Numbered from the stretch's first letter, positions 38,380 through 54,772 are shown. The stretch: 64,000 nucleotides of DNA from Paracoccaceae bacterium (GCA_965203255.1 OZ241882.1:5391436-5455435), one strand, 5' to 3'. Numbers and translations: made by a program. The notes: generated by a model from the sequence alone, not told the origin.

Positions 38380-38911
38380 GGCGGAATCGTCCGCCTTGCG
38401 TCCCGGACATGCCCGGTCGACCAAAAGACGACCACCCGATGTCCCGTCAGGAGTTCGGGGAGCTTCCCGGACGACGGGGCCTGCGCCCGCCACCTGGCTG
38501 AGCTACGCTGGGGCGCCAGCTCTGGAACGTCTTTATCGGAACCCCATGGGATTGGCGGAAGCTTGCCTGCGAGCCGTCCCAGCGCTCGAAGTTCGCCATC
38601 AGGGCCTGCTGGCCTCGCTCCGAACTCTTCGGCCGGAGCCCGCAACGGCCGCCAACGATGCATCATCTGTCATGAAGACCCCTCCAATCAAGGTGAATGA
38701 ATCGGAAGATGCTCTTGCGCAGGAGCAGACGAAGGCAAGACGAATAGGCAACGCCGTGCTTTTGACGCTTACCGTCCAGAAGCACCCGGACGAGTTCGTC
38801 TTCCGCTGGAACCGGCACCACCACCACAGGGTCTCCTTCGACAGCCTTCCCGGCATTGGCCCGAGGTTGCCGCCCGCAACGTACCGCGACATCATCGAAG
38901 GACGCGCCTGA
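38380..38911 (+). pseudogene. 3' fragment of a GC-rich IS1595-family transposase
   Basis: The frame ending at 38911 reads ...KHPDEFVFRWNRHHHHRVSFDSLPGI...PPATYRDII, close to the IS1595 C-terminal consensus (YLDEF.FRFNRR....F..LL......TY..I). Upstream frames are broken, and the composition changes abruptly near 38380. Confidence 0.4.
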
Positions 38912-39063
38912 GGCGACCAGAGTGCCGGTACCCCACGCCCGCAATCCCTCAGGACGCCCCCGCATCCCCGCCTTCCCCGCCGTCAGGGTCGCCCCACGGC
39001 GGCGCTGGCGCGTTCTCCGCGACGGATCCGGGAATCCTGCCGCATGGCACCCACCACAACATC

Positions 39064-40595
39064 TTATGCCGATTTGGCCAGAGGAGCCTCTTGCACAATT
39101 ATCGCGGTTCGGGCTTGCGCTGCAAGCCTTTGGGTTCCTTCAGGGGCGCGGCACCGGAACTGACGGGTGCCCGGGGCGTTTCCACCGACTTGGGTGTGGC
39201 GGAATGCCGCAGTCTGTGGCCCGTCGGGCACCGTCCGCGCATGGCTGGCCGCGCCGTCCCCTCCGGGGCGGCGTCCGCGGCGTCCGGTGCTGCCGCGGCT
39301 GGTGGCGTCAGATGGTGAGCCGCATCAGCTGCCCGCCCGTCAGGGCCAGCACGCCGAAGAACAGGTGGCAGGCCACCCTGGCGTGCCCCCGGACGCGGAC
39401 GTGCCGGGCGCCGTAAGAGTCCTTCAGGGCGGAGTTCACGCGCCCGCCGCTGGAGCGCTGCCGGTAGCGGACGCGGTCGTGGCGTATGTGGCCCGCTTTC
39501 CTCTGCGCCAGCGCCTCTTTCCCGAGGCGCTCCCTCAGCGCCGCGTCGCGGCGGGGGTTGGTGTCGGTGACCGCCACGCGCCCCGTCAGGCAGGCGTGGA
39601 ACCCGATCTCCAGGGAACCGTGGCCGCGTCCATGAGCTCGTGGCAGTGGTCCACCCGCAGCGCCGTCATTTTCGACAGCGGGATGGCGGCCTGGCTGTCG
39701 TGCAGCGACGCCGAGGTCAGGATGCAGCTGACGGGGACGTCCCCATCGGCGGCGTCGATATGGAGCCTGTACCCCCTCCAGCTCTCCCTGTACCCCTTCG
39801 CGTTGCGCTTCGTGCCGGTGCCGCAGGCCTTCGGCAGCCCGTCGGCCATCTCCGCGGCGGTCATCCCGTCCCGCAGCTGCCGCTCCAGCCGGGTCGGCTC
39901 CTTCGGCCTCTCCTCCCCCTTTCCCGGGCGTCCGCGCTTTCGCTTCGGTCCCTCCTGCGGCTTCGGCTTCGGCGCCGGCCTCTCCCGCCCGACGATCGCC
40001 GTGGAGTCCCGCGATATGTGTCCGACGACCGAGCCGGCGTACGCGGCGCGGACCAGCGCCCCGTGCATCCGCTCCGGCAGCCGGGTCTCCGCGAACCAGG
40101 CGAAGGCGCGGGAGAACGCCGGTTCGCTGGGAACCTCCGATACGCGGGACCAGCCGACGGGCCTGCGCAGCGTCGGGTGGTGGCGCAGCCTGTCGACCGT
40201 CACCACCGTGGCCGGCATGTCCCACACCGCCCTCCCGACGAAGGCCCGCGCCAGCGCCCTGCGGTCGGCGGCAGGGTTGCCGACGCCCCCGTGGCTGTAG
40301 TGCACGTGCCTCTCGACCTCCACCAGGTCCAGGACGGCGACGGACCTGCCGTGCCTCACGCCCAGCGGCCCGACCTCCCCGGCGAGGGCCGGCAGAAGTT
40401 CCCCTTGAAACCGCTGCCAGGCATCTGATATGGAAGAACGTAGGGACATGGAGCCGTCTCCCCGTATGTAGTGGCTTTCACACCTGCTCCATACTAGAGG
40501 GACGGCTCCATATCCAGGCCATCCATCAGAAAAAGCGTCCGTTTCCGAAAAAAACCGCTTGATCGGGAAGTTCTGCAAGAAGCTCAGAGGATAAG
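39064..40595 (-). mobile_element. IS4-family insertion sequence (approximate ends)
   Basis: Imperfect terminal repeats CTTATGCC...GAGCCTCTTGCACAATTATCGCGGTT (39064-39108) pair with the reverse complement of 40543-40595, CTTATCC..GAGCTTCTTGCAGAACTT..ATCAAGCGGTT. They enclose the transposase frames. Confidence 0.55.
39308..40449 (-). pseudogene. IS4-family DDE transposase with a -1 frameshift
   Basis: From the ATG at 40449 the frame reads ...GYRLHIDAADGDVPVSCILTSASLHDSQAAIPL...HELMDAA and then stops. The next frame continues GSLEIGFHACLTGRVAVTDTNPRRD...RYRQRSSGGRVNSALKDSYGARHVRVRGHARVACHLFFGVLALTGGQLMRL. One missing base near 39620-39623 would restore DAAYGSLEI. Confidence 0.7.
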
Positions 40596-40671
40596 CCTTA
40601 AGTTCCTTTTGACTCTGAAAGGCCGCTGGGCAATGGTAAGGCCACAGATTAGGGTCACGGAGGATCGGACC

Positions 40672-42240
40672 ATGCAAGGTCAAATTGTGATTTCCATCGC
40701 GACGATTGCATTGAGCGTTGGTGCGGCCGCAGCCGAGTACAGATTGACGGTTCTGCACACGAACGACTTTCATTCGCGTTTCGAGCCGATCAGCAAGTAT
40801 GACAGCGGCTGTTCGGCAGAAGACAATTCCGAGGGCAAATGCTTCGGTGGGTCCGCTAGGCTGGTGACGGCCGTGGATGAGGCAAAGAGACGTAGTGCGA
40901 ACTACATCCTTGTGGACGGTGGAGACCAATTCCAGGGTTCGCTGTTCTATACGTATTACAAAGGCAAGGTGGCCGCCGAACTGATGAACAAAATGGGCTA
41001 CGATGCAATGACCGTTGGTAACCATGAGTTTGATGACGGCCCTGAAGTCCTGAGGGGCTTCGCTGAATCGGTACGCTTCCCGATCCTGATGTCGAATGCC
41101 GAATATTCAGGTGAGCCGGCGTTGGTCGGGACGATCCGGAAATCCGTGGTTATGGAGCGTGGTGGCGAACGGCTGGGGCTGATCGGACTGACCCCTGTTG
41201 ATACGCAGGAACTCTCGAGCCCCGGCAAGAACATCGTGTTCACGGATCCGGTCGCATCCGTTCAGGAGCAGGTCGATCTGCTGGAGGCGGAAGGTATCAA
41301 CAAGATCATCCTGCTGAGCCATTCAGGCTATCTTGTTGACCAGCATGTTGCTTTGAACACAGATGGTGTCGACATAATAGTCGGCGGACACGACAACACC
41401 TATCTGTCGAATGCGTCCGAGGACGCGGAGGGTCCGTATCCAACTATGGTGGGTCCGACTGCGATCGTTCAGGCCTATGCATTCGGGAAGTTCCTGGGCG
41501 AACTGAACGTGTCGTTCGACGACGACGGCGTGATCACGGAGGCTGTTGGCGACCCTATCATTATGGATGCAAGCGTGCCCGAGGATGAGGCGACAAAAAT
41601 GCGCATCAATGAGCTCGCGGCCCCGCTCAATGAGATTCGAAGCAGGGTCGTGGCACAAGCCGGCGGGATGATCGACGGTGATCGAGGTGTCTGTCGGGTT
41701 GCGGAATGCCCGATGGGTAATCTCGTAGCGGAAGCGATGCTTGAACGCGTGAAGAATCAGGGCATCCAGATCGCCTTTGCCAATTCAGGTGGCATCCGCG
41801 CCTCGTTTCAGGCGGGCGACGTGACGATGGGCGACGTAATGACCGTCCTGCCATTCCAGAACACATTGTCCACATTCCGGATCAAGGGACAGGGCATTAT
41901 CGACTCGCTTGAGAACGGAGTTAGCCAGGTCGAGGAAGTCAAGGGTCGTTTTCCGCAGGTGGCGGGCCTAAGCTTCGTTTGGGATCCAGCGGTTGCGCCC
42001 GGGCAGGGGCGGATCAATGAGGTTCTGGTTGCCGGTCAACCGATCGACCCTGACGCCACGTATGGCGTGGTGACAAACAACTTCGTTCGAAATGGTGGTG
42101 ACGGCTATAGTGTGTTTGCCACACAAGCGATTGAACCATATGATTTCGGTCCGGATCTAGCGGATGTGTTGGCGGAGTACATCGCGGGCCGGACTCCGGT
42201 TACCCCGATGCTCGACGGTAGAATCTCAAGGCTTGAGTAG
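40672..42240 (+). CDS. Periplasmic bifunctional 5'-nucleotidase / UDP-sugar hydrolase (UshA-like)
   Basis: Signal peptide, then LTVLHTNDFHSRF, VDGGDQFQGS and GNHEFD metallophosphoesterase motifs, plus a C-terminal 5'-nucleotidase domain. Confidence 0.85.
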   Translation: MQGQIVISIATIALSVGAAAAEYRLTVLHTNDFHSRFEPISKYDSGCSAEDNSEGKCFGGSARLVTAVDEAKRRSANYILVDGGDQFQGSLFYTYYKGKVAAELMNKMGYDAMTVGNHEFDDGPEVLRGFAESVRFPILMSNAEYSGEPALVGTIRKSVVMERGGERLGLIGLTPVDTQELSSPGKNIVFTDPVASVQEQVDLLEAEGINKIILLSHSGYLVDQHVALNTDGVDIIVGGHDNTYLSNASEDAEGPYPTMVGPTAIVQAYAFGKFLGELNVSFDDDGVITEAVGDPIIMDASVPEDEATKMRINELAAPLNEIRSRVVAQAGGMIDGDRGVCRVAECPMGNLVAEAMLERVKNQGIQIAFANSGGIRASFQAGDVTMGDVMTVLPFQNTLSTFRIKGQGIIDSLENGVSQVEEVKGRFPQVAGLSFVWDPAVAPGQGRINEVLVAGQPIDPDATYGVVTNNFVRNGGDGYSVFATQAIEPYDFGPDLADVLAEYIAGRTPVTPMLDGRISRLE

Positions 42241-46096: not shown

Positions 46097-46323
46097 CTGG
46101 CCGGCGCACCGTTCAGGCAGCGCAGTTCGTGCCGGGCGCCGTCGGCGTCGGTGAACCGGGCCGCGCGTGTGCCGGGTTCCGCGCCGGGGACGGAGCGGAG
46201 GCCGTGCCGCCGCAGGCGGGCGATGCGGGGCCCGTTGGAGGCGGGGCCGTCCTGCGGGACGATGGCCTTCAGGCGCCGACGCTCCCGCCGGAGGCCGTCG
46301 ACGGACCGCGCCGCGGCGTTGCG
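46097..46323 (+). repeat. Left copy of an inverted homologous GC-rich repeat bracketing the 47.5-53.5 kb island
   Basis: Aligns by eye at roughly nine in ten positions with the reverse complement of 53813-54069, apart from one ~29-bp indel. Confidence 0.75.
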
Positions 46324-47490
46324 CCCGCAGCCGTTCCTCCTGTCCCCGCCGGTCCTGGCGACCGGCTCCGGGGCCAGCGGCGGCGCCTCGCGGCGTTCCG
46401 GGTGGCGGACCACGGCGGCGGGCGTGCTGTGGGAGTGGCTCCCCGGCCCGTCACTGTGGCTGGCGACGCGGCGGTGGTGGCGGTGGACGGACCTCGGGCC
46501 GGGTGGCCGGCGCCGTCGACCGGGATCAGGCAACGGCCGTCGAGAACCGGCTGGCCCTCCAGCGCCCTGCCGCGCCGCAGCCCTGCGGACAGGGTCCTGA
46601 AGACCGGTGGCGGCCGCCTGGGGCCGGCCGTGCCGGGGCGCCTGCGCATGGGGGGGTCGCAGGGCGCCGCCGCGGTCCCGGACAGCGTCCGGAGGTTCCC
46701 GCGGACGATGGCGTCGCCGCGGCTGTCCCTGCCGGACCGCGGGAGCGACGGATACTTCAGCGGGAACATCGCGGACGCCGCCATGAGGTGGTCCCCAGGG
46801 CCGGACCGGCGGTCCCGCCGGAACATTCCGCCAGCGCCCCGACCGGCCCGGGCCTGCCGGGGTCCTTCCGGAACCGCATCGTCCCAGCTCCCGTCAGTGA
46901 GGCCAGCACGGATGCGGCAAGGGCAGGAGCCTATGATGTCCAGAGGATTCCGGGCGGTTTCCGGCCGCCGGGAAGGAAAGGTCCACCAAACCCGGATCAC
47001 GGAACCCCATGGAATACAGAGTCCGGAAGGGCTGGTGGGAATTGCTGGCGGCCCGGTCGCCGCTCGCCCGAATAACGCGAGCCGCCATTCTCTAACGGTC
47101 TCCAAGCCCTCGCGCGTCGGTTCAAGAAAGTCTGAGTTATTAGTTGGCGCTCCGCCGCTTCGAGTGCCGGGGCGCCCCGGATGTCCAGCCTGTTGTGGAG
47201 AACGGTGTCGTCAGGCGGATGCGGATAGCAGGAGTCGCGGTCGCTCATCCTGCCGTGTCGGCGCGGCCGCGATCTTCGATCCAGAGGAGGATACGGGTGC
47301 GCCGCTGCTCGGGCGACCACCCCTCGTGCTTGAACATCTCGACAAGGAGTAAGTTGGTGTGGGGTCAGCAATTGACGTCGCAGCGTGGCATGAGGTTGAC
47401 AGACACACCGGACTAGGCCACGTTCTATACGGCAACTACGCTGATCGCCGACATGGGCGAGAATGGCGCTGACTTGCTGAGGAGGCGGAA

Positions 47491-48228
47491 ATGAAAGCGG
47501 ATATTGAGATCGATGGCACTAAGTACGACGTTGCAGCCGGTTTGGTCAGCGCTCAAGTAATCTATGACTTGGTCGGATGTGACGGCGGACGTCTTTTTCT
47601 TAACCAAGAGGATGACATCGATATTCCGCTCGACTCTGCCAGCTTTATTATAATTAGAGGGCAAGAGTCGTTTGTGACCGGAGAGAGTTCGATTGAAGAC
47701 AATCCGCCACTACGAAAAACAATCCAGCTTAAGCTAAATGGCGAACTAGGCCCAACGCTGCCGAAGGCAATAATTACTGGGAAAGAACTCAAGGCGTTTG
47801 ACACTGAACACTCGGAAGGTCGTCTCTTTGCTGACATTGGTACTGGGCCAGATGCAGAGATAGCAGACGACACGAAGGTTCTGGTACAGGAAGGAAACGC
47901 CTTCTTCGTGATTCCAGCAAGTGACGGTTCTGGTGCTGGAGATCCGATAGACATCGAGAATTGCAGCCGACATGGCCGCCCACCACCTAAGGGGCAAAAA
48001 TATCGAATCAGGATCGATCGAGACAAATACACTATTGAGGAAGAAAAGATCACGGGTATGCAAATTTTGGCACTAGCTGAAAAGACGCCAGAAGAATGGG
48101 CGTTGAACCAGAAGCTAGTAGGAGGGAAAAGAGAACGGATCAGGGCAGACGACTTCGTTGACGTCTCACTACCCGGTGTCGAGCGGTTTGAGACCGTTCT
48201 CCGTCAGGCGCAGCAAGGACGTGAGTGA
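47491..48228 (+). CDS. Multi-ubiquitin-like protein with three tandem beta-grasp (Ubl) repeats
   Basis: Strong RBS GAGGAGG. There are three ~65-aa repeats with the same pattern: IEIDGTKYDV...SAQVIYDLVG...; LKLNGELGPT...TGKELKAF...; IRIDRDKYTIEEEKITGMQILALA.... The C-terminus is ...QQGRE. Confidence 0.65.
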   Translation: MKADIEIDGTKYDVAAGLVSAQVIYDLVGCDGGRLFLNQEDDIDIPLDSASFIIIRGQESFVTGESSIEDNPPLRKTIQLKLNGELGPTLPKAIITGKELKAFDTEHSEGRLFADIGTGPDAEIADDTKVLVQEGNAFFVIPASDGSGAGDPIDIENCSRHGRPPPKGQKYRIRIDRDKYTIEEEKITGMQILALAEKTPEEWALNQKLVGGKRERIRADDFVDVSLPGVERFETVLRQAQQGRE

Positions 48229-48610
48229 CGCCTTTGAACTGCTCCCGGAGGACGTTGAGTACCTTGATGCCAATCATCGAGGTCGATGGCGAAAACTCAA
48301 CGAAGGGAGTGGAAAGTACGGCCTTCTAATTGAGGGTTTTGCTGTTCCGGCTGGGTTCGCGCACTTAACAGCAGACCTTATGGTCCTGATACCTGCAGGG
48401 TATCCTGCATCTCCATTGGATATGTTCTATCTTGATCCACCGCTAAGTAAGTTGAACGACCAAGATGCGGGAGCGCTTTCAATCGAGGAACATTTTGCGC
48501 GTCGATGGCAGCGGTGGTCCAGGCACTATGGGTGGAGGCCGGGCGAGCATGACCTTACTTACCATATCGAATATGTCTGGCACGAACTGCAAGTAGCCGG
48601 CGCGAAATGA
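48221..48610 (+). CDS. E2/UBC-fold protein (Prok-E2_E-like) without any cysteine
   Basis: LMVLIPAGYPASPLDMFYLDPPL is the E2/UEV-type 'YPxxPP' flap. It is followed by RWQRWSRHYGWRPG. There is no Cys in the whole ORF. The GTG start at 48221 overlaps the Ubl stop. Confidence 0.6.
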   Translation: MSDAFELLPEDVEYLDANHRGRWRKLNEGSGKYGLLIEGFAVPAGFAHLTADLMVLIPAGYPASPLDMFYLDPPLSKLNDQDAGALSIEEHFARRWQRWSRHYGWRPGEHDLTYHIEYVWHELQVAGAK

Positions 48611-49998
48611 AACTCCTGACACTAGCGATGACTAGACGAACGCATGAATTGGCGTTCCGATACCTCTTTCCTGGAGATGGATTGGAGGCCGCGGGTGTCT
48701 TTATATGCAATCAAGGATCAGGGAAACATCATCAGAGGCTTGTAGTGGCAGAGTTTGTCGGGCTGTCTTACCCATTGTCTGACAGACGCGTAAACAAGGT
48801 TACGTGGCCGTTCGAAGCACACTTCGCGCCAGACACGATCACCAACATTGATCGGCTGGGCCAATCTGTGATTACAGTTCACTCCCATCCGAATGGCGGC
48901 AACGAATTCTCAAAAATTGATGACGAGAATGATCGGGAACTATTTGCGTCAGTGAACGCGTGGTTTGATGACGGTAGAATTAATGGTGCGGCGATTATGT
49001 TACCGGATGGATTGGTTGTGGCGAGGTCGGTAGAGGAGGACGGTCAGTTTCGCGGCTTCCGTTCAGTCAATGTTGTGGGCGATAACATCTTAATTTGGAG
49101 CAGCAAGGAACGAAAGCGCTCAACTGCATATGAGAGGAAGTTGTCTCAAACATTTGGAGGGGGAACGCTCAATCGACTACGTACAATGAGAGTGGGGGTG
49201 GTGGGCTGTTCAGGAACTGGAAGTATTGTGATTGAGCTATTGGTTCGCAACTGTGTTGGACAGCTCGTGATTGTTGATAATGATGTTCTTGAGGAGAAGA
49301 ACCTCAACCGGATCATGAATGGTTCAGTAGTGGATGCCAAAAACAAACGATCAAAGGTGGAAGCGATTAGGGGGGCAGTTGAACGAACTGGACTTGGGAC
49401 CCAGATCGATGCGTATGATGCGTTGACCGACTCTCCGGAGGTCGTATCAGCACTAGTCGATTGCGATGTGCTCTTTGGCTGTGTGGACTCGGCCTTTGGG
49501 CGGTATCATTTAGAGTGTTTAGCCAGTGCGTATCTGATTCCTTATTTTGATGTCGGAGTGCATATAGCCGCCGACGGGACGGGAGACATCGGTGCTGCCG
49601 ACGCAGTGTCTCATTACGTCCACCCAGATGGGCGCGATTTGTGGTCTCGTGGTGCATACCACATGGATCAGGTGACAGCGGAGAATTGGCAACGAGCGGA
49701 CCCGGGGCACTACGAACGACAGCGCGTCGCTGGATACCTAGCGGCGGTGGGAGAGGAGCAACCGGCAGTAATGTCGGTGAACATGCAGGCGGCATGTATG
49801 GCGTTCAACGACTTTATCGCGCGAGTGCACGCATTTCGGTTTGACCTAGATCGTGACTTTGCTACCCAACGATTTCGCTTGGTTCACGGTTGTTTTGAAT
49901 CCGAAGCGGATGACGGGAAACCACATCGGCTGTTTGAACGGTACCGAGGTACCGGTGACAACAGTCTGCTTGTGCGGAACAATATTCGCCGTGATTAG
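48607..49998 (+). CDS. JAB/JAMM deubiquitinase-like domain fused to an E1/ThiF-like adenylation domain
   Basis: Exact JAMM motif HSHPNGGNEFSKID (HxHx7SxxD). Then a Rossmann motif RVGVVGCSGTGSIVIELLVRNCVGQLVIVDNDVLEEKNLNR and CDVLFGCVDS, which are typical of ThiF/MoeB/E1. ATGA overlap with the E2 gene. Confidence 0.75.
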   Translation: MKLLTLAMTRRTHELAFRYLFPGDGLEAAGVFICNQGSGKHHQRLVVAEFVGLSYPLSDRRVNKVTWPFEAHFAPDTITNIDRLGQSVITVHSHPNGGNEFSKIDDENDRELFASVNAWFDDGRINGAAIMLPDGLVVARSVEEDGQFRGFRSVNVVGDNILIWSSKERKRSTAYERKLSQTFGGGTLNRLRTMRVGVVGCSGTGSIVIELLVRNCVGQLVIVDNDVLEEKNLNRIMNGSVVDAKNKRSKVEAIRGAVERTGLGTQIDAYDALTDSPEVVSALVDCDVLFGCVDSAFGRYHLECLASAYLIPYFDVGVHIAADGTGDIGAADAVSHYVHPDGRDLWSRGAYHMDQVTAENWQRADPGHYERQRVAGYLAAVGEEQPAVMSVNMQAACMAFNDFIARVHAFRFDLDRDFATQRFRLVHGCFESEADDGKPHRLFERYRGTGDNSLLVRNNIRRD

Positions 49999-50356
49999 GT
50001 GGCTGTTCAACCAACTGGCTAAACGGCATCCGTACAGAACGGAGTGGGTGGAGGACCTGCCTGAACGCGTAGCGAGGGATACGGTCTACATCATAGGGGG
50101 AAAGAAGTATCCATTTCAGGCTGCGGTAGTATGTCCTCGGCGCCGATGCCGGCAGATCATCCACTTGGACATATCACCCGAGTTGCAAAAGCGGTGGCTG
50201 ATAACCGAGCATCCGGGCGGCGAGGTATCGTTGCACCCATCCGTGCACGTGACAGGGCGTAGCTGCAAATGTCACTATTGGCTGCAGCGCGGAAGGATTC
50301 GCTGGAGCGGAACGCCGAGCATTTTCGTGCCGAGGGAGAACAGGGATGATTCGTAG
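49991..50356 (+). CDS. DUF6527-like zinc-ribbon protein
   Basis: VVCPRRRCRQIIHLD...LHPSVHVTGRSCKCHYWLQRGRIRW fits the C..C ... PS....C.(C/S)H.w...G.I.W pattern I associate with DUF6527. The GTG start at 49991 overlaps the E1 stop. Confidence 0.5.
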   Translation: MIRWLFNQLAKRHPYRTEWVEDLPERVARDTVYIIGGKKYPFQAAVVCPRRRCRQIIHLDISPELQKRWLITEHPGGEVSLHPSVHVTGRSCKCHYWLQRGRIRWSGTPSIFVPRENRDDS

Positions 50357-51236
50357 GGTCATCGTAAGCCGGTTCAAGAAATTTCACCTTTTCGACTCCA
50401 ACCTGGAGGAGCGGATGGTTATTGCCGGTCCGAACAATTCGGGTAAGTCGACGCTATTGCAGGTTTTGGCGACCTGGGCGGAGCTGGGTGAGATTTGGTT
50501 GCGGAGTATTGCAGACCTAGGTTGCCAGGATTATCAGAGATTGCACCGCGTGGAAGTGAACGTTGCCAGCCTCGGGACGTTGGCGCTGTCTAGCTTCGAC
50601 CAGTTGTGGCATAATCGGGATACGAGAGAGCCGATTACCATCAGAGTATTGGCGGACGACTGGGACGTGGGTTTCGAACTCAGCTATCAGGATGCGACGA
50701 CCGCCATCGTGGAGCCGTTGACAGACATATCGGCACCGCAGCTTGATGCTTATGCGAATAACCCGCCGAAGGCACTCTACGTTCCGTCACTATCAGGATT
50801 GGATATTGACGAGCCCGAATATAGCGAAGGAGTAGTCACCACACGACTGGCTCACGGCAAAGGCGGAATGGTTCTTAGGAATATGGTTCAAGCCACAAGC
50901 CGTGACGATGCAAAATGGCGTACGCTGCAGAATACAATAAAGTCGTTCTTTGGTTTTGAACTTTCGAGACCAAGTGGTGTCGATCCGATAACGGTGCGGT
51001 ACAGGCACTCGGTAACGGACCATTGGTACGATCTGCTTAATGGTGCCGCAGGCTTCCTGCAAACGTTACTAGTGCAGTCCGCTCTCTTGCATTCGAGCGC
51101 GACGCTGTTTCTCATTGATGAGCCGGATGCTCATTTGCACGTGTTGCTCAAGGCGAAGATGTACCGCCTCATACGTGAGCACTGCGACGAAAATGACTGT
51201 CAGGTGCTGATCGCAACCCACTCCGGCAGCATCCAT
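50346..51236 (+). pseudogene. 5' part of a fused AriA/AriB (PARIS)-like ABC-ATPase/Toprim gene, interrupted by IS110
   Basis: Walker A GPNNSGKST, Walker B/D-loop LFLIDEPDAHLH, and H-loop IATHSG. Protein-like sequence ends at ...GSIH (codon CAT at 51234-51236), where the composition switches to GC-rich IS DNA. The start overlaps the upstream gene by 11 nt. Confidence 0.7.
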
Positions 51237-51438
51237 GTTGGAAATCAAGCCCGGATCCGGCTTTTTTCCGACTTTTTCCCGGTTTTTCCGCGGTTCCGTG
51301 TCCGGCTGTCCCGGACCTTTCCACAGCGTTCCCCACAGGCGGCGGCGTCCGGGCGCGCCGAAGGGCCCGCCGGGGAGACCCCGGCCGGCCCGCCGGTGAT
51401 TCGCTTTCGGTGCCGGACGGACGCGGTCCGGCCTGCCG

Positions 51439-52383
51439 TCAGGCGGCGGCCGCCGTCCGGTCCTCCCACATCCGGCGGTCGCGGAGAAGGGCGCTGGCGG
51501 TCACGACCAGCCTGCGCATGACGGCGACGGGGGCGACTTTGTGGGGCTTTCCCCTCTCCCGGAGCCGTTGGTACAGTTCCCTCATGTCCGGGGAGCACCT
51601 GCTGGCCGACAGCGCGGCCATATAGACGACATCCCTCGGCCTGCGGCGTCCGCCGCCGATGTGGCGCCCGCCCTTCAGGGTGCCGCTGTCTCGGGCGAAG
51701 GGGGCCACGCCGAGCAGGGATGCGGCCTGGCGGTTGCCGATGGCGCCCAGCTCGGCCATCCATGCGACCAGCGCCGCGGCGGTGACGGGGCCGATGCCGG
51801 GCACCGAGGTCAGGATGCGGTGGCTGTCGGCGAACTCCGGCGATGCGGCGACCGTCCCGCCGATCCGCCGCTCCAGCGCCACGATGGCGGCGTCGATGTC
51901 CTCGAGGACCCTGCCGACCTCCGTGCCGGGTGCGTCGGCGCCGACCTCCGACACGACGGTCCCCGTCCCGGCGCGCTGGTCCACGAGCTTCTCCCGCAGC
52001 ACCAGCATGTCGCGGAGCCGGTCGATGGCACCGGTGGCCGGCGCCGTGGCCCGCATGTCCGGGAACGCGGCCCCGAAGGCCGCCAGTATCCTGGCGTCCA
52101 CCCTGTCGGTTTTCGCAAGGGCCCCGGCGGCCTTCGGGAGATCCCTCGCCTGCCTCGGGTTCACGACGGTGGCGGAGAACCCCCTGGCGTGCAGCGACTG
52201 CAGAAGCGCCCGGTGCATGCGTCCCGTGGCCTCCATGACGGCCCGCGTGGCGCCGCCCTCCCTGAGGAGGCGGCCGACCTTGCGGAAGCCGACCGTGTCG
52301 TTGGTGGCCGTGAAGTCACGCCCGTTGACGTGGATGTTGAGTGTACGCTTGCTTACGTCGATTCCGGCGACTATGGCTGTCAT
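51439..52383 (-). CDS. IS110-family (DEDD) transposase/recombinase
   Basis: N-terminus IVAGIDVSKRTLNIHV. The C-terminus ...RGKPHKVAPVAVMRRLVVTASALLRDRRMWED is typical of IS110. Confidence 0.9.
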   Translation of the reverse strand: MTAIVAGIDVSKRTLNIHVNGRDFTATNDTVGFRKVGRLLREGGATRAVMEATGRMHRALLQSLHARGFSATVVNPRQARDLPKAAGALAKTDRVDARILAAFGAAFPDMRATAPATGAIDRLRDMLVLREKLVDQRAGTGTVVSEVGADAPGTEVGRVLEDIDAAIVALERRIGGTVAASPEFADSHRILTSVPGIGPVTAAALVAWMAELGAIGNRQAASLLGVAPFARDSGTLKGGRHIGGGRRRPRDVVYMAALSASRCSPDMRELYQRLRERGKPHKVAPVAVMRRLVVTASALLRDRRMWEDRTAAAA

Positions 52384-52700
52384 GCTCTCCCGCTCCTATC
52401 CTCGCGATGATCCGGTTCCGTGAACCCAGGCATCCATCCAGGACCCGGGAGACGGACGGGAGGGCGGGCCGACCACGCTGCCGGACGGATCCGCTGTCGC
52501 GATCCAAGGCCGTATCGGTCCAACCCGTCCTGCGGGGCAGGGCCCCGCACCGCCGCCGCCGGTAGTGGTCCGACGGCGGCGGTCCCGCCACAGGAATGAA
52601 CCGGAGGGACGGCGGAAGGCAACAGGCATGTTTTCCACAGGAAATCGCGCCAGATTTTTCCACAGCCACCTCCTCCTTTCATTTCTGATTCTCTGAACAT
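52384..52700 (-). ncRNA. Candidate bridge (guide) RNA region in the IS110 5' non-coding end
   Basis: A ~317-nt non-coding, hairpin-rich segment upstream of the recombinase, where IS110-group elements are reported to encode a bridge RNA. It contains GCATCCAT (52430-52437), identical to the 8 nt abutting the left junction (51229-51236). Confidence 0.3.
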
Positions 52701-53489
52701 ACGAGGCTGATCGGGGAAGCGGCGAGCGAAAAAGGAGAGAAACTGTTTCTTGTCACTGCAAGCGGTCTTAGGCCAGTTCGTAGGCAGGAGGCGGAGCAAC
52801 TGTTAACTATCTCTAGCGAGGAAATCGTATTGGCGGAAACAACGCAGCGGGTGGTGTATTTGGAAGGAAAGACTGATATTGATATTTTGCGGGAATGGGC
52901 AAAGGCGTTGGATCACCCAGCATGGCAGTACTTGGACAAAGGTTTCTGCGTGCCAACCGCGGAAGGGACGAGTCGAACTTATGCTAAAAAGCACTATCGT
53001 GCACTAAAGGCGCAAGTCCCGACGCTGCGCGCGTTGGAGGTGTGTGATCGAAATGGAGCCAAAGGCGAGCACTGGGATGACCTAGGGCCGGGCGAATTAC
53101 GTACGGAAGAGGGACGTAGGAATACGCCGGAAGGAATGAAGGTATTATACTGGACCCGCTATGAGATCGAAAACTATTTGATCCATCCGAGTGCGATATT
53201 ACGGTTTATCTCGCGGCGTATGGGAAAGGCGGCGAAAGAAGCGGCGGGAGAATACATGGAAAAATACTTACCTCGGGTGCTAATGGAAAGACCATTCGAA
53301 ACCACAGATACCGATCAGATCAAGGGCAAAAAAACAGTCGGTAGAATTCTGAGCGTGGCGGGGGTAGAGCTTGGAGAGTCGGACTACTTCCAAATCGCTG
53401 CTGAGATGTCGGCCAATGAAATACATCCGGACGTCGTAGCTATGCTGGACGAAATAGCGGCTCAACTGACTAGTGTAGCGCCATCGTAG
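52701..53489 (+). pseudogene. 3' part of the AriA/AriB-like gene: linker plus DUF4435/Toprim-like domain
   Basis: An open frame without a start codon runs from 52689: ...HTRLIGEAASEKGEKLFLV...EEIVLAETTQRVVYLEGKTDIDILREWA...ALEVCDRNG...WTRYEIENYLIHP, which are DUF4435/OLD-Toprim-like motifs. It is in phase with the 5' part if the IS is removed. Confidence 0.65.
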
Positions 53490-53812
53490 CAATGACGGTT
53501 CTGCCTGGCTGTCTCCCGGTATCATGCCGCCTTTGCCGGCGTCAGGCAACAGGCGGGCGATGGGAGAGGCGGCGGGGCAGACCGCCCCCGGCCCGCATCA
53601 TGGAACGGAGCGGACCATGGCACAGGAGACGGGGACTCCCGGAAAGGAACGCAGGATATACCGGATCCGCCTTTCGGATGGCGGGAGGGCGGGGCGGCGG
53701 CGTACAGGCGCCGGCACGCCCGGATCCTGCCGCTGGCCGACGGGGCCCGTGACGACGGGGGCCGCACCGGTTCCGGCATCGCGCCGGTCCTGAAGGTCGG
53801 CGTGTCGGCCGC

Positions 53813-54069
53813 CGCAACGCCGCGGCGCGGTCCGTCGACGGCCTCCGGCGGGAGCGTCGGCGCCTGGAGGCCATCGTCCCGCAGGACGGCCCCGCCTCCA
53901 ACGGACCCCGCATCGCCCGCCTGTGGCGGCACGGCCTCCGCTCCGTCCCCGGCGCGAAGCCCGGCGGCCACGCGCCGCCGTTCGCCAGCCCCGGCACACG
54001 CGCGGCCCGGTGCACCGACGCCGACGGCGCCCTGCGCGAACTGCGCTGCCTGAACGGCGCGCCGGCCAG
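53813..54069 (-). repeat. Right copy of the inverted homologous GC-rich repeat
   Basis: This is the reverse-complement match to 46097-46323 (see the left copy). Confidence 0.75.
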
Positions 54070-54772
54070 CGCCTCCCGTCCCGACATCGGGGCCAGCGTC
54101 ACCGGATGCCGGGAGACGGTCACCAGAAGGAAATGCGTCGCGGGGCGCCACCGCGGTCCGGACGGCCCGGCCCACCGGGGCGGGGGGAAACGGAAGGGGC
54201 TCCCCTGGGTCACCGACCTTCCCGTGGACGGCGGCAGCCCCGTGCCGGCCATGCGCGCCGCCCGCTCCCGCTGGCGCACCGGGAACGGGACCCCGGCACG
54301 CCGGGGAACCAGGGCCACCGCTCCGGGACCGGCTTCGGGCACGGAAAGCGGCGCCTGACCAAGGTGCCCGCCATGACGGTGACGCCCGCGTTCCCCACCG
54401 ACCGGACCGGGGCCGCCTCCCGCAGGGTGTTCGCCGCCGCGCCGGGGCGAGGGGGCGGACGGGGTGCCTCCGGGAGGGAACCCGGCAGTGCTTCCCCGGC
54501 TTCCCGGTCCCCGACTGGCGGACCCTCCACCCCGCCCTGACCCACGGGCACGCGGCGGCGGCCTTGGCCGTCGCCGGGCCGTCCGGACGGTCGCCGCCGC
54601 GGCGCGGGGCGCCCAGGCGCGCCTGGGCGCCCGACCGAGCCGCCCACGGGCAGACCCGCGACACATCCCCTTTTTCCGCCGGAACGCCGCCGGAGGCTCC
54701 CGCACGCCCGGATTCCGCCCGAATCCGACGCCGACGCCCGCGCCACGCCGGAAACCGGACCGGAATCTCACT

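What the first reader, a model, noticed from the sequence alone, without database searches (positions are those of the whole stretch)
50346..53489. AriA/AriB-like fused ATPase-Toprim gene is cleanly split by an IS110 element and can be rejoined in frame
The protein-like reading ends at codon CAT (51234-51236). It resumes in an open frame that has no start codon, from 52689. Joining 51236 to 52701 keeps the phase and gives a ~560-aa protein: ABC ATPase - ATHSGSIH/TRLIGEAASEKGEKLFLV linker - DUF4435/Toprim-like domain. This implies recent inactivation of the presumed toxic effector, a common fate of costly defence genes. It also implies the whole system may currently be silent.
Basis: partly seen in the sequence, partly recalled or inferred. 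Interest (0 to 1): 0.7.

Follow-up and report, generated by a model that had tools for sequence, protein, structure and literature searches.

The report
IS110-split OLD-like gene in Bub operon
A mobile IS110 element has cut an otherwise healthy ATPase-nuclease gene in two; that is ordinary, but the gene turns out to be a conserved, undescribed fifth gene of a bacterial ubiquitin-like ("Bub") operon whose function is still unknown.

Summary
An IS110-group insertion sequence (51230-52703, minus strand, 1,474 bp) sits in codon 295 of a 555-codon gene and has the family's CT core (AG on the + strand) on both sides. Joining 51229->52706 is gap-free at both protein and DNA level.

Two further lines confirm the ends: the left ends of related IS copies, and the element's own bridge RNA. 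Its donor loop matches the IS ends. Its right-target guide matches the gene 8/8, but its left-target guide matches only 5/9.

The gene is not demonstrably PARIS. It is an OLD-family ABC-ATPase/Toprim protein: the fold is closest to OLD nucleases, and Pfam DUF4435 scores below threshold.

It is the translationally coupled last gene of an intact Type I Bub (6E.1/DUF6527) operon. The same five-gene arrangement recurs in 21 of 25 informative loci across many phyla. The Bub and OLD papers I could search do not mention it.

The gene halves show no decay, so the insertion looks recent. Only the fifth gene is knocked out, so "whole system silent" is not shown.

The parts
47491..48228 (+). BubA, a ubiquitin-like protein of 245 aa. 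It ends ..RQAQQG-RE*.
   Evidence: Pfam Multi_ubiq, E=2.6e-20. Aligns end to end with the BubA of 21 related loci.
48221..48610 (+). BubB, an E2-like protein. Its likely GTG start at 48221 overlaps the BubA stop (GTGAGTGA). The mechanical ORF starts at 48158.
   Evidence: Pfam Prok-E2_E, E=1.9e-25. The start was inferred by comparison with the fused BubAB of L007 and the split genes of L010, L011 and L014.
48607..49998 (+). BubCD, a JAB peptidase-E1 fusion of 463 aa.
   Evidence: Pfam Prok-JAB + ThiF. 60-83% identical, over the full length, to the upstream gene in related loci.
49853..50356 (+). BubE (DUF6527/PF20137), a serine protease according to PMC11601596. Its stop overlaps the ATG of the next gene by 11 nt.
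   Evidence: Pfam DUF6527, E=1.5e-13, named BubE in newer Pfam. The same overlap geometry is seen in related loci.
50346..51229 (+). 5' part of the OLD-like gene: codons 1-294 plus 2 nt. It holds the ABC-ATPase with Walker A GPNNSGKS, Walker B LIDEPD and H-loop ATHSG. The called ORF reads on into the IS to 51521 (391 aa).
   Evidence: Pfam AAA_21/AAA_15. Alignments A1 and A2. P0026 is the identical 391-aa product in public assemblies.
51228..51229 (-). Core dinucleotide CT (AG on the + strand) at the IS right-end junction.
   Evidence: The same dinucleotide is at 52704-5. Only one copy is present in the intact homologue DNA. Related IS copies also have CT flanking their ends.
51230..51438 (-). 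IS right end (RE), 209 nt. In IS orientation it ends ..TTGATTTCCAACATGGATG. The -35-like TTGATT lies at 51248-51243.
   Evidence: The RE ends of relatives are ..TTGACA-N11-ATGGATG|CT.
51439..52383 (-). IS110-family RNA-guided DEDD recombinase, 314 aa, intact.
   Evidence: Pfam DEDD_Tnp_IS110 + Transposase_20. NCBIfam NF033542, 182.7 bits against a cutoff of 140. This exact protein is found at only this one place in the collection.
52384..52703 (-). IS left end (LE), 320 nt. It starts CGTATGTTCAG.. (-10-like TATGTT at 52701-52696) and encodes the bridge RNA in roughly 52560-52384. Guide positions: LTG 52515-52507, target-loop hairpin 52505-52487, RTG 52485-52478, LDG 52437-52428, RDG 52409-52401.
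   Evidence: Alignment with four related elements. Consensus fold: 93% of cells paired, 10 pairs with compensatory changes, 0 of 500 shuffles reach the observed value, slid controls 36-50% paired.
52704..52705 (-). Core dinucleotide CT (AG on the + strand) at the IS left-end junction.
52706..53489 (+). 3' part of the OLD-like gene: the third base of codon 295 through the stop. It holds the linker and the Toprim-like domain (YLEGKTD, LEVCDRNG, RYEIENYLIHP). There is no start codon at its head and no promoter-like site upstream.
   Evidence: C-terminal AF2 model, pLDDT 92.4. Foldseek top hits are 6nk8/6njw OLD Toprim regions. The promoter scan found nothing.

Best explanation
What is shown:
- A 1,474-bp IS110-group insertion sequence has integrated, antisense, into codon 295 of a 555-codon gene. 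It carries an intact RNA-guided DEDD recombinase and its own bridge RNA, and it is flanked on both sides by the family's CT core.
- The cut falls directly after the ABC-ATPase H-loop (ATHSG|R). It separates the ATPase domain (residues 1-294, now fused to a 97-residue nonsense tail) from the linker and Toprim-like domain. That second part is left without a start codon or a recognisable promoter, so the full-length protein cannot be made.
- The gene encodes an OLD-family-like ABC-ATPase/Toprim protein. It is the translationally coupled last gene of an otherwise intact Type I Bub (bacterial ubiquitination-like, 6E.1/DUF6527) operon: BubA, BubB, BubCD, BubE.

What is inferred:
- Integration was bridge-RNA guided but at a sub-optimal site. 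The right-target guide pairs 8/8 with the gene, while the left-target guide pairs only 5/9 (4 contiguous).
- The insertion is evolutionarily recent.
- It removes the nuclease/ATPase arm of a five-gene Bub-OLD module and leaves the conjugation genes intact.
For: Junction:
- Gap-free protein and DNA colinearity with the corrected join.

IS identity:
- Pfam and NCBIfam hits.
- LE 320 nt is longer than RE 209 nt, as in the IS110 group (PMC11208160).
- Relatives L090, L092 and L094 start CGTATG/TGTATG right after a flanking CT and end ..ATGGATG|CT.

Bridge RNA:
- Conserved two-loop fold with hypervariable guide loops.
- RTG against core+RT: window TCCGGCAG/CTGCCGGA, L092 TCAAAAG/CTTTTGA, L094 GGTTGAG/CTCAATC.
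- LTG against LT+core: 8, 6 and 6 contiguous matches in L090, L092 and L094, but 4 in the window.
- LDG ATGGATGC(C)T equals the RE end plus the core. The RDG covaries with the LE start (CGAG/CTCG against CAAG/CTTG).
- A sigma-70-like promoter is rebuilt across the circle junction: TTGATT-17 nt-TATGTT.

Gene family:
- 634 homologues; the close ones are about 550 aa at 99% coverage.
- The PDB profile search and the fold search put OLD 6p74 and GajA first.
- The C-terminal domain matches 6nk8/6njw best.

Operon:
- Pfam hits for the four upstream genes.
- The same BubA-B-CD-E-ATPase arrangement, with identical spacing, in 21 of 25 informative genome loci whose ATPase is at least 35% identical. These span Gamma- and Alphaproteobacteria, Latescibacterota, Rhodothermales, Binatia, Thermodesulfobacteriota, Chloroflexota, Longimicrobiales and Nitrospirales.

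Recency:
- 2 of 117 conserved columns deviate, both conservatively.
- The transposase is single-copy.
- IS GC is 72-73% against 57% for the window outside its GC-rich islands.

Not an assembly artefact: the identical truncated product is on record in three contig-length blocks, and the contig read is shared by two samples.
Against: - No empty-site allele of the same strain was found. The closest intact homologue is 83% identical, so the age of the insertion is inferred only from the lack of decay.
- The left-target guide matches poorly (5/9), so guide-directed integration here is only half explained.
- Nuclease activity, ATPase activity and any functional link to Bub conjugation are untested.
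- The Toprim second motif reads DxN (D409-R-N411) in this subclade rather than the canonical DxD.
- The bridge-RNA covariation rests on only five sequences, two of which are near-identical.
Confidence: 0.87

Rival explanations
1. The gene is a fused PARIS (AriA-AriB) toxin-effector. It is rejoined exactly at 51236/52701, and its loss silences the whole defence system.
For: - The best PADLOC model is AriAB (73 bits, E=4e-21), and one matched stretch (251-368) spans the junction.
- There is a weak DUF4435 hit on the RYEIENYLIHP motif.
- AriB is the second-best fold match for the C-terminal domain.
Against: - The join adds SIHT, which is absent from all 21 aligned homologues.
- DUF4435 scores 12.9 bits against a cutoff of 27.
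- OLD 6nk8/6njw, 6p74 and GajA outrank AriB and AriA.
- NsnB, GajA and mad3 models score nearly as well as AriAB in PADLOC.
- The gene sits in a Bub operon.
- The upstream Bub genes are intact.
Confidence: 0.1
2. A reversible switch. Because IS110 elements can excise precisely at the CT core, the insertion would act as an ON/OFF toggle for a costly nuclease gene rather than a dead end.
For: - The IS is fully intact: recombinase, bridge RNA and donor-loop match.
- Scarless excision of IS110 elements is described in PMC11208160.
- Removing 51230-52705 restores a perfect ORF.
Against: - A 2026 preprint (10.64898/2026.08.31.748434) reports that IS621 excision mostly releases a single-stranded circle and leaves the donor site intact.
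- No restored allele exists in the protein collection.
- The assemblies on record that hold this locus all carry the truncated product.
Confidence: 0.08
3. An assembly chimera. The high-GC segment would have been mis-joined into the gene during metagenome assembly.
For: - There is a sharp GC jump.
- The contig name (ctg138276_8x) suggests only about 8x coverage.
Against: - The boundaries fall exactly on a CT core with IS110-type ends.
- The element's own RTG is complementary to the flanking gene.
- The same truncated ORF is on record in several assemblies and in two samples.
Confidence: 0.02
4. An old, tolerated split. The ATPase fragment and a separately translated Toprim fragment (TTG at 52830, 219 aa, preceded by GAGGA) would still work as a two-part system, like split AriA/AriB.
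For: - An in-frame TTG ORF of 219 aa covers the whole Toprim domain.
- Split ATPase/Toprim systems do exist: PARIS, class 4 OLD (PMC12796447).
Against: - There is no promoter-like site between the IS and 52830.
- The IS faces away from this fragment.
- The ATPase fragment carries a 97-aa nonsense tail.
- No homologue in 80 loci is split here.
Confidence: 0.04

Closest known systems
IS110-group insertion sequences with bridge RNA (IS621 type; Durrant et al. 2024, PMC11208160)
   Same: - DEDD + Tnp_20 recombinase.
- No terminal inverted repeats.
- CT core on both sides.
- Long LE that encodes a two-loop RNA. Its donor loop matches the IS ends and its target loop matches the insertion site.
- A promoter rebuilt across the RE-LE circle junction.
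   Different: - It is a new element. The closest relatives found are 71% identical at protein level, from metagenomes. Nothing closer than about 70% over 20% of its length exists in PLSDB plasmids.
- It has no Rfam match.
- It inserted into a protein-coding gene with only a partial left-target match, not into a repeated intergenic target.
OLD-family ATPase-nucleases (class 1 TsOLD 6p74; class 2 GajA/BpOLD 6nk8)
   Same: - N-terminal ABC ATPase plus C-terminal Toprim in one polypeptide of about 550 aa.
- These are the best sequence-profile and fold matches.
   Different: - Only 12-15% identity.
- No Pfam or NCBIfam model covers the C-terminal domain.
- The Toprim second motif is DxN in this subclade.
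- The gene context matches none of classes 1-5 (single gene, helicase, retron, split PARIS, archaeal membrane partner; PMC10568477, PMC12796447). Instead the protein sits in a Type I Bub operon, and more distant members sit between a Type III-like methylase and a ResIII-like protein.
PARIS (AriA/AriB, class 4 OLD; fused AriAB variants)
   Same: - ABC ATPase + Toprim logic.
- Best PADLOC model.
- A weak DUF4435-like motif.
   Different: - DUF4435 is below threshold.
- AriA and AriB are weaker matches than OLD and GajA.
- The genomic context is different.
- The trigger and the substrate are unknown.
Type I Bub (6E.1/DUF6527) operons (Corbett lab, PMC11601596, PMC11601603)
   Same: - Multi-ubiquitin BubA, Prok-E2_E BubB, JAB-E1 BubCD and DUF6527 BubE, in that order.
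- Relatives carry the CapH/CapP-like or WYL regulators that the paper reports (L007, L005).
   Different: - There is a fifth, overlapping gene for an OLD-like ATPase-Toprim. Those papers contain no mention of ATPase, nuclease, Toprim or effector.
- BubA and BubB are separate overlapping genes here rather than a BubAB fusion.

Membership tests
IS110 family (IS110 group) | DEDD (RuvC-like) domain plus a Tnp_20 domain in the recombinase | tested here: met
   PF01548, E=6e-19, and PF02371, E=6e-18. NF033542, 182.7 bits against a cutoff of 140.
IS110 family (IS110 group) | The same core dinucleotide (typically CT) flanks both ends, and there are no long terminal inverted repeats | tested here: met
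   CT (AG on the + strand) at 51228-9 and 52704-5, with a single copy in homologue DNA. The ends are CGTATGTT.. and ..AACATGGATG, which share only a 5-nt subterminal inverted repeat.
IS110 family (IS110 group) | A long left end encodes a bridge RNA whose donor loop pairs with the IS ends and whose target loop pairs with the insertion site | tested here: met
   - LE 320 nt against RE 209 nt.
- Conserved fold with compensatory changes.
- LDG and RDG match the ends. RTG matches 8/8.
- Guides covary with flanks in L090, L092 and L094.
- Caveat: LTG matches only 5/9 here, and only five sequences were compared.
IS110 family (IS110 group) | Circular intermediate that rebuilds a promoter across the RE-LE junction | tested here: inconclusive
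   At sequence level only: TTGATT-17 nt-TATGTT across the inferred junction, and TTGACA in relatives. The circle itself cannot be tested with these tools.
OLD family nucleases | N-terminal ABC ATPase with Walker A, Walker B and H-loop | tested here: met
   G28, N30, G33 and K34 of GPNNSGKS, D258 of LIDEPD and T291-H292-S293 are invariant, and most other motif residues are at least 90% conserved, in 34 sequences. Pfam AAA_21/AAA_15. 6p74, E=1.6e-12.
OLD family nucleases | C-terminal Toprim nuclease domain with a catalytic Glu and DxD | tested here: inconclusive
   - Fold: 6nk8/6njw, prob 1.0, TM 0.47/0.55.
- E348-G349 is invariant.
- The second motif is D409-x-N411 here, and DGD in distant members.
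- No residue-level superposition was done and no activity was tested.
OLD family nucleases | Class-defining gene neighbourhood (classes 1-5) | tested here: not met
   The neighbourhood is a Type I Bub operon. This matches none of the class contexts listed in PMC10568477 or PMC12796447.
PARIS (AriA/AriB or fused AriAB) | AriB-type DUF4435 Toprim domain | tested here: not met
   PF14491, E=0.094, 12.9 bits against a cutoff of 27, in one of four members scanned. AriB fold match: prob 0.85/0.75, TM about 0.3, behind OLD.
PARIS (AriA/AriB or fused AriAB) | AriA-type ABC ATPase / match to the AriAB profile | tested here: inconclusive
   PADLOC AriAB: 73 bits, in three partial stretches of a 694-position model. 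NsnB, AriA and GajA score close behind. PDB AriA, E=4.7e-7, is weaker than OLD, PtuA and GajA.
PARIS (AriA/AriB or fused AriAB) | Activation by phage anti-restriction proteins and cleavage of tRNA | not testable with these tools
   Needs experiments.
Type I Bub operon | Ubl, E2-like, JAB-E1 fusion and DUF6527 genes in one operon | tested here: met
   Multi_ubiq, Prok-E2_E, Prok-JAB+ThiF and DUF6527/BubE in consecutive overlapping genes.
Type I Bub operon | BubA-BubB encoded as one BubAB fusion that BubCD cleaves | tested here: not met
   They are separate genes in different frames, with the GTG start overlapping the stop (GTGAGTGA). The same holds in L010, L011 and L014. They are fused in L007.

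The most novel reading that the evidence does not exclude
The OLD-like ATPase-Toprim protein could be the missing effector or sensor arm of a five-gene subclass of Type I Bub systems. Ubiquitin-like conjugation by BubA/B/CD, reversed by BubE, would then control an ATP-driven nuclease (or be controlled by it). That would give Bub operons, whose biological role is still open, a concrete and testable output. The same nuclease module also serves Type III-like restriction loci in a more distant branch.
Probability: 0.4. Interest if true: 0.7.

Novelty: new variant of a known kind. Interest (0 to 1): 0.4.

Why it matters
The IS hit itself is routine genome decay of a defence gene. It is useful mainly as a clean natural example of a bridge-RNA element landing at a half-matched site inside a coding sequence.

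The more useful result is what the broken gene is. The authors of the Bub work state that they saw no phage protection and that targets and function remain unknown (PMC11601596). A conserved, translationally coupled OLD-like ATPase-nuclease in 21 loci across many phyla points to a candidate output for these systems. It would also add a ubiquitin-linked context to the context-based OLD classification.

Tried and rejected
- **Rfam, 45-56 kb at E<=1:** no family matched, so the bridge RNA is not recognised there.
- **Window self-BLAST:** no second IS copy.
- **Exact-protein look-up of the transposase:** only this one place.
- **PLSDB blastn with the IS:** only 66-70% identity over about 20% of its length, in Rhizobium IS110 genes. 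These were useless for defining the ends.
- **PLSDB tblastn with the repaired protein:** 28% identity at best.
- **NCBIfam:** no family for the ATPase-Toprim protein or for BubE.
- **Pfam on the C-terminal domain of four members:** nothing above threshold.
- **Promoter scan:** no site that could drive the 3' fragment.
- **Search for the predicted ideal target ATACGGCCTGCCGGAC in the window, up to 3 mismatches:** none.
- **GC-rich blocks next to the operon:** no Pfam hits, no Rfam hits (the two operon-flanking blocks only; 38872-40367 was outside the Rfam scan), no tandem repeats (same two blocks only), and absent from relatives' loci. They remain unexplained.
- **Supplementary tables of the Bub preprint:** not held.
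- **Assembly chimera:** considered and rejected (see rival explanations).
- **PARIS membership:** considered and rejected (see membership test).


Full report
**1. Observation**

The region 50346-53489 holds two pieces of one gene, separated by a segment of foreign composition.
- GC rises from about 52% to 72-73% between roughly 51.2 and 52.7 kb.
- The insert carries a 314-aa ORF on the minus strand (51439-52383). It has both IS110-family domains and matches NCBIfam 'IS110 family RNA-guided transposase' above the curated cutoff.
- The upstream ORF (50346-) is an ABC ATPase.
- The downstream frame is open from 52689, lacks a start codon and ends at 53489.

**2. The junction**

- Translating that join gives 559 aa.
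- Searching with it returned hundreds of full-length homologues of about 550 aa, the closest 79-83% identical at 99% coverage. It also returned the exact truncated 391-aa product of this locus (P0026).
The proposed join therefore carries 12 nt that do not belong to the gene.

The corrected join is 51229 to 52706.
- The sequence shows TCCGGCAG|CATCCATG.. on the left and ..GAACATACG|AGGCTGATC on the right, so an AG sits on both sides.
- Joining there gives 555 aa with no gap.
- The repaired DNA matches the intact genes of two relatives base for base across the junction (..CACTC[C/G]GGCAGGCTGATCG..).
- The IS is therefore 51230-52703 (1,474 bp) plus one copy of the dinucleotide. In the IS's own (minus-strand) orientation that dinucleotide is CT, the core of IS110 elements (PMC11208160).

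**3. Independent confirmation of the ends: the element's own RNA**

IS110-group elements encode a bridge RNA in a long left end. One loop pairs with the donor (the IS ends) and one with the target. LTG and LDG have the sequence of the top strand of the left half plus the core. RTG and RDG are complementary to the core plus the right half (PMC11208160).

Basic layout:
- Here the LE is 320 nt and the RE 209 nt.
- A metagenome scan gave relatives at 71, 71, 69, 54 and 50% protein identity.
- Their left ends align with this one. All start CGTATG or TGTATG immediately after a flanking CT, and their right ends finish ..ATGGATG|CT.
- The 3' 180 nt of the LE folds into a conserved structure: an outer stem, an internal loop, a hairpin, an internal loop, then a second stem-loop. 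93% of cells are paired and 10 pairs show compensatory changes. None of 500 shuffles reaches the observed values, and slid controls give 36-50% pairing.
- The stems are conserved and the loop segments are hypervariable.

Guide-to-flank matches:
- RTG: window TCCGGCAG = rc(CT+GCCGGA), 8/8. L092 TCAAAAG = rc(CT+TTTGA), 7/7. L094 GGTTGAG against rc(CTCAATC), 6/7 with the mismatch a G-T wobble.
- LTG: L090 ..ATCGGCCT equals its flank ATCGGCCT (8 contiguous). L092 TCGACT (6). L094 GACCCT (6).
- Donor loop: ATGGATGC(C)T equals the RE end ATGGATG plus the core.
- RDG: CATCGCGAG / CATCACGAG / CATCACAAG tracks the LE start CT-CGTATG or CT-TGTATG, with a one-base bulge as described for IS621.

Circle junction: across the inferred junction the RE supplies TTGATT (TTGACA in relatives) and the LE supplies TATGTT, 17 nt apart. 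This is the promoter arrangement described for this family.

These features fix the IS ends where the homologue alignment puts them.

One oddity remains. The window element's LTG (ATACGGCCT) matches the gene's left flank (GATCAGCCT) at only 5 of 9 positions, 4 of them contiguous. The insertion site is therefore a full match on one half and a weak match on the other. A 2026 preprint reports that such 'half-match' events account for about half of non-target-site IS621 insertions (10.64898/2026.08.31.748434). That this explains the present case is my inference. The predicted cognate target does not occur in the window.

**4. What the gene is**

- *Sequence families.* Pfam sees only the ATPase (AAA_21, AAA_15). 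PADLOC's best model is fused AriAB, but only at 73 bits in three partial stretches. NsnB, AriA, GajA and mad3 score close behind.
- *Solved structures, by profile.* A profile of 34 family members hits class 1 OLD 6p74 first (E=1.6e-12), then PtuA and GajA, with AriA further down at 4.7e-7. All matches are in the ATPase domain.
- *Full-length fold.* The AF2 model is confident (pLDDT 87.7). Its best fold matches are TsOLD and GajA over both domains.
- *C-terminal fold.* The C-terminal 239 aa modelled alone (pLDDT 92.4) matches the class 2 OLD C-terminal Toprim regions 6nk8/6njw best (prob 1.0, TM 0.47/0.55). AriB follows (prob 0.85/0.75, TM about 0.3), then GajA.
- *DUF4435.* It scores 12.9 bits against a cutoff of 27, on the RYEIENYLIHP motif only.
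- *Motifs.* Conserved motifs fit an ABC-ATPase/Toprim enzyme: GPNNSGKS, LIDEPD, ATHS, then YLEGKTD, LEVCD-x-N/D and RYEIENY.

I therefore file it as an OLD-family-like ATPase-Toprim protein of an unnamed clade. It works like OLD, GajA and PARIS in domain logic, but PARIS membership is not met.

**5. Context**

The gene is not alone. Immediately upstream, with overlapping stops and starts, lie Multi_ubiq (BubA), Prok-E2_E (BubB), a JAB+ThiF fusion (BubCD) and DUF6527 (BubE). This is a Type I Bub (6E.1) operon as defined in PMC11601596. The BubE stop overlaps the ATG at 50346 by 11 nt.

Conservation of the arrangement:
- Of 80 genome loci encoding relatives of the ATPase-Toprim protein, 26 are at least 35% identical and 25 of those have usable upstream sequence.
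- 21 of the 25 carry BubA, BubB and BubCD directly upstream at the same spacing, and 18 of them also have a detectable BubE.
- They come from Gamma- and Alphaproteobacteria, Latescibacterota, Rhodothermales, Binatia, Thermodesulfobacteriota, Chloroflexota, Longimicrobiales and Nitrospirales MAGs. Many of these are sponge-associated by name.
- Individual look-ups agree.

A more distant branch:
- Relatives at or below 34% identity lack Bub.
- Instead, about 30 of them sit between a large upstream and a large downstream protein. One example of each was scanned: a Type III-like DNA methylase (PADLOC MTase_III, 484 bits) and a ResIII-like protein.

So this nuclease module has been recruited into at least two defence-type contexts.

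Literature:
- The two Bub papers contain no occurrence of ATPase, nuclease, Toprim or effector. They state that no phage protection was seen and that the targets and biological roles remain to be defined.
- Reviews of OLD classes list five gene contexts, none of them ubiquitin-related.
- A further full-text search found no paper that links the two.

Within what I could search, the five-gene Bub-OLD arrangement is undescribed.

**6. Consequences of the insertion**

- *Shown.* The full-length protein cannot be made. The ATPase fragment ends in 97 residues of read-through. The Toprim part has no start at its head and no promoter-like site upstream. The four Bub genes are full-length relative to homologues.
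- *Inferred: recency.* The repaired protein deviates at 2 of 117 columns that are at least 90% conserved (A40V, L345V), within the 0-5 range of intact close homologues. Both halves are equally similar to the nearest relative, 84% and 81%. The IS is intact, single-copy and compositionally foreign.
- *Not shown.* That the whole system is silent, that the protein is toxic, or that the insertion was selected.

In at least two relatives the Bub part itself is broken by other transposons while the OLD-like gene is intact (L002/L003, L005). This fits frequent decay of this module but does not prove a cost.

**7. Verdict**

As an IS-disrupted defence gene it is ordinary. The IS is a new member of a known family with a textbook bridge RNA. 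The interrupted gene marks a previously undescribed five-gene variant of Type I Bub operons, and that is the part worth following up.

Noticed in passing
window 46098-46915 and 53593-54726: Two blocks of 78-79% GC flank the Bub-OLD island. They share an inverted segment of about 257 bp at 85% identity (46097-46323 against 54069-53813; 167 bp at 94.6%). They have no Pfam hit for their long ORFs, no Rfam match and no tandem repeats, and they are absent from the equivalent loci of relatives. Their nature is unknown.
   Followed up: partly
window 38872-40367: A third GC-rich island (72% GC, about 1.5 kb). It overlaps a 479-aa minus-strand ORF (39586-41025) that has no Pfam match, and it is unrelated in sequence to the IS110 element. 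It may be another foreign insert.
   Followed up: partly
window 48158-48228 (also L010, L011, L014): BubA and BubB are separate genes in different frames. A GTG or ATG start overlaps the BubA stop (GTGAGTGA here), leaving a 2-5-residue tail after the ..RQAQQG end of BubA. In L007 and many other loci they form the single BubAB fusion that the Bub paper gives as the Type I definition.
   Followed up: partly
L002/L003 5397-7653 and L005 2882-6619: In close relatives the Bub genes themselves are degraded while the OLD-like gene is intact. In L002/L003 an IS with DDE_Tnp_1/DUF4096 sits where BubB should be, and BubCD is in three fragments. In L005 only a 335-aa ThiF ORF is left, next to transposase fragments. 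Different parts of this module decay repeatedly.
   Followed up: no
L035-L086 (e.g. L040 983-4018, L066 5928-9074): Relatives of the ATPase-Toprim protein at 29-34% identity sit between a roughly 1,000-aa Type III-like DNA methylase and a roughly 1,050-aa ResIII-like protein in about 30 loci. This looks like a three-gene restriction-type module. Only one example of each neighbour was scanned.
   Followed up: partly
L007 2809-4011 and L005 4520-5203: Bub-OLD loci in relatives are preceded by an HTH + Peptidase_M78 pair (CapH/CapP-like) or by a WYL protein (CapW/BrxR-like). These are the DNA-damage-responsive regulators reported for Bub operons. No such gene was seen directly upstream in the window, where a GC-rich block lies instead.
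   Followed up: no
window 51257-51289: An 11-nt unit (CCGGCTTTTTC) repeats three times inside the IS right end.
   Followed up: no
L090 about 1733-1750: The right end of the 71%-identical IS relative reads ..AACATGGATAATGATCC rather than ..ATGGATG-CT-GATCC. Either the junction is mutated or the core differs. The RT half still matches that element's RTG.
   Followed up: no
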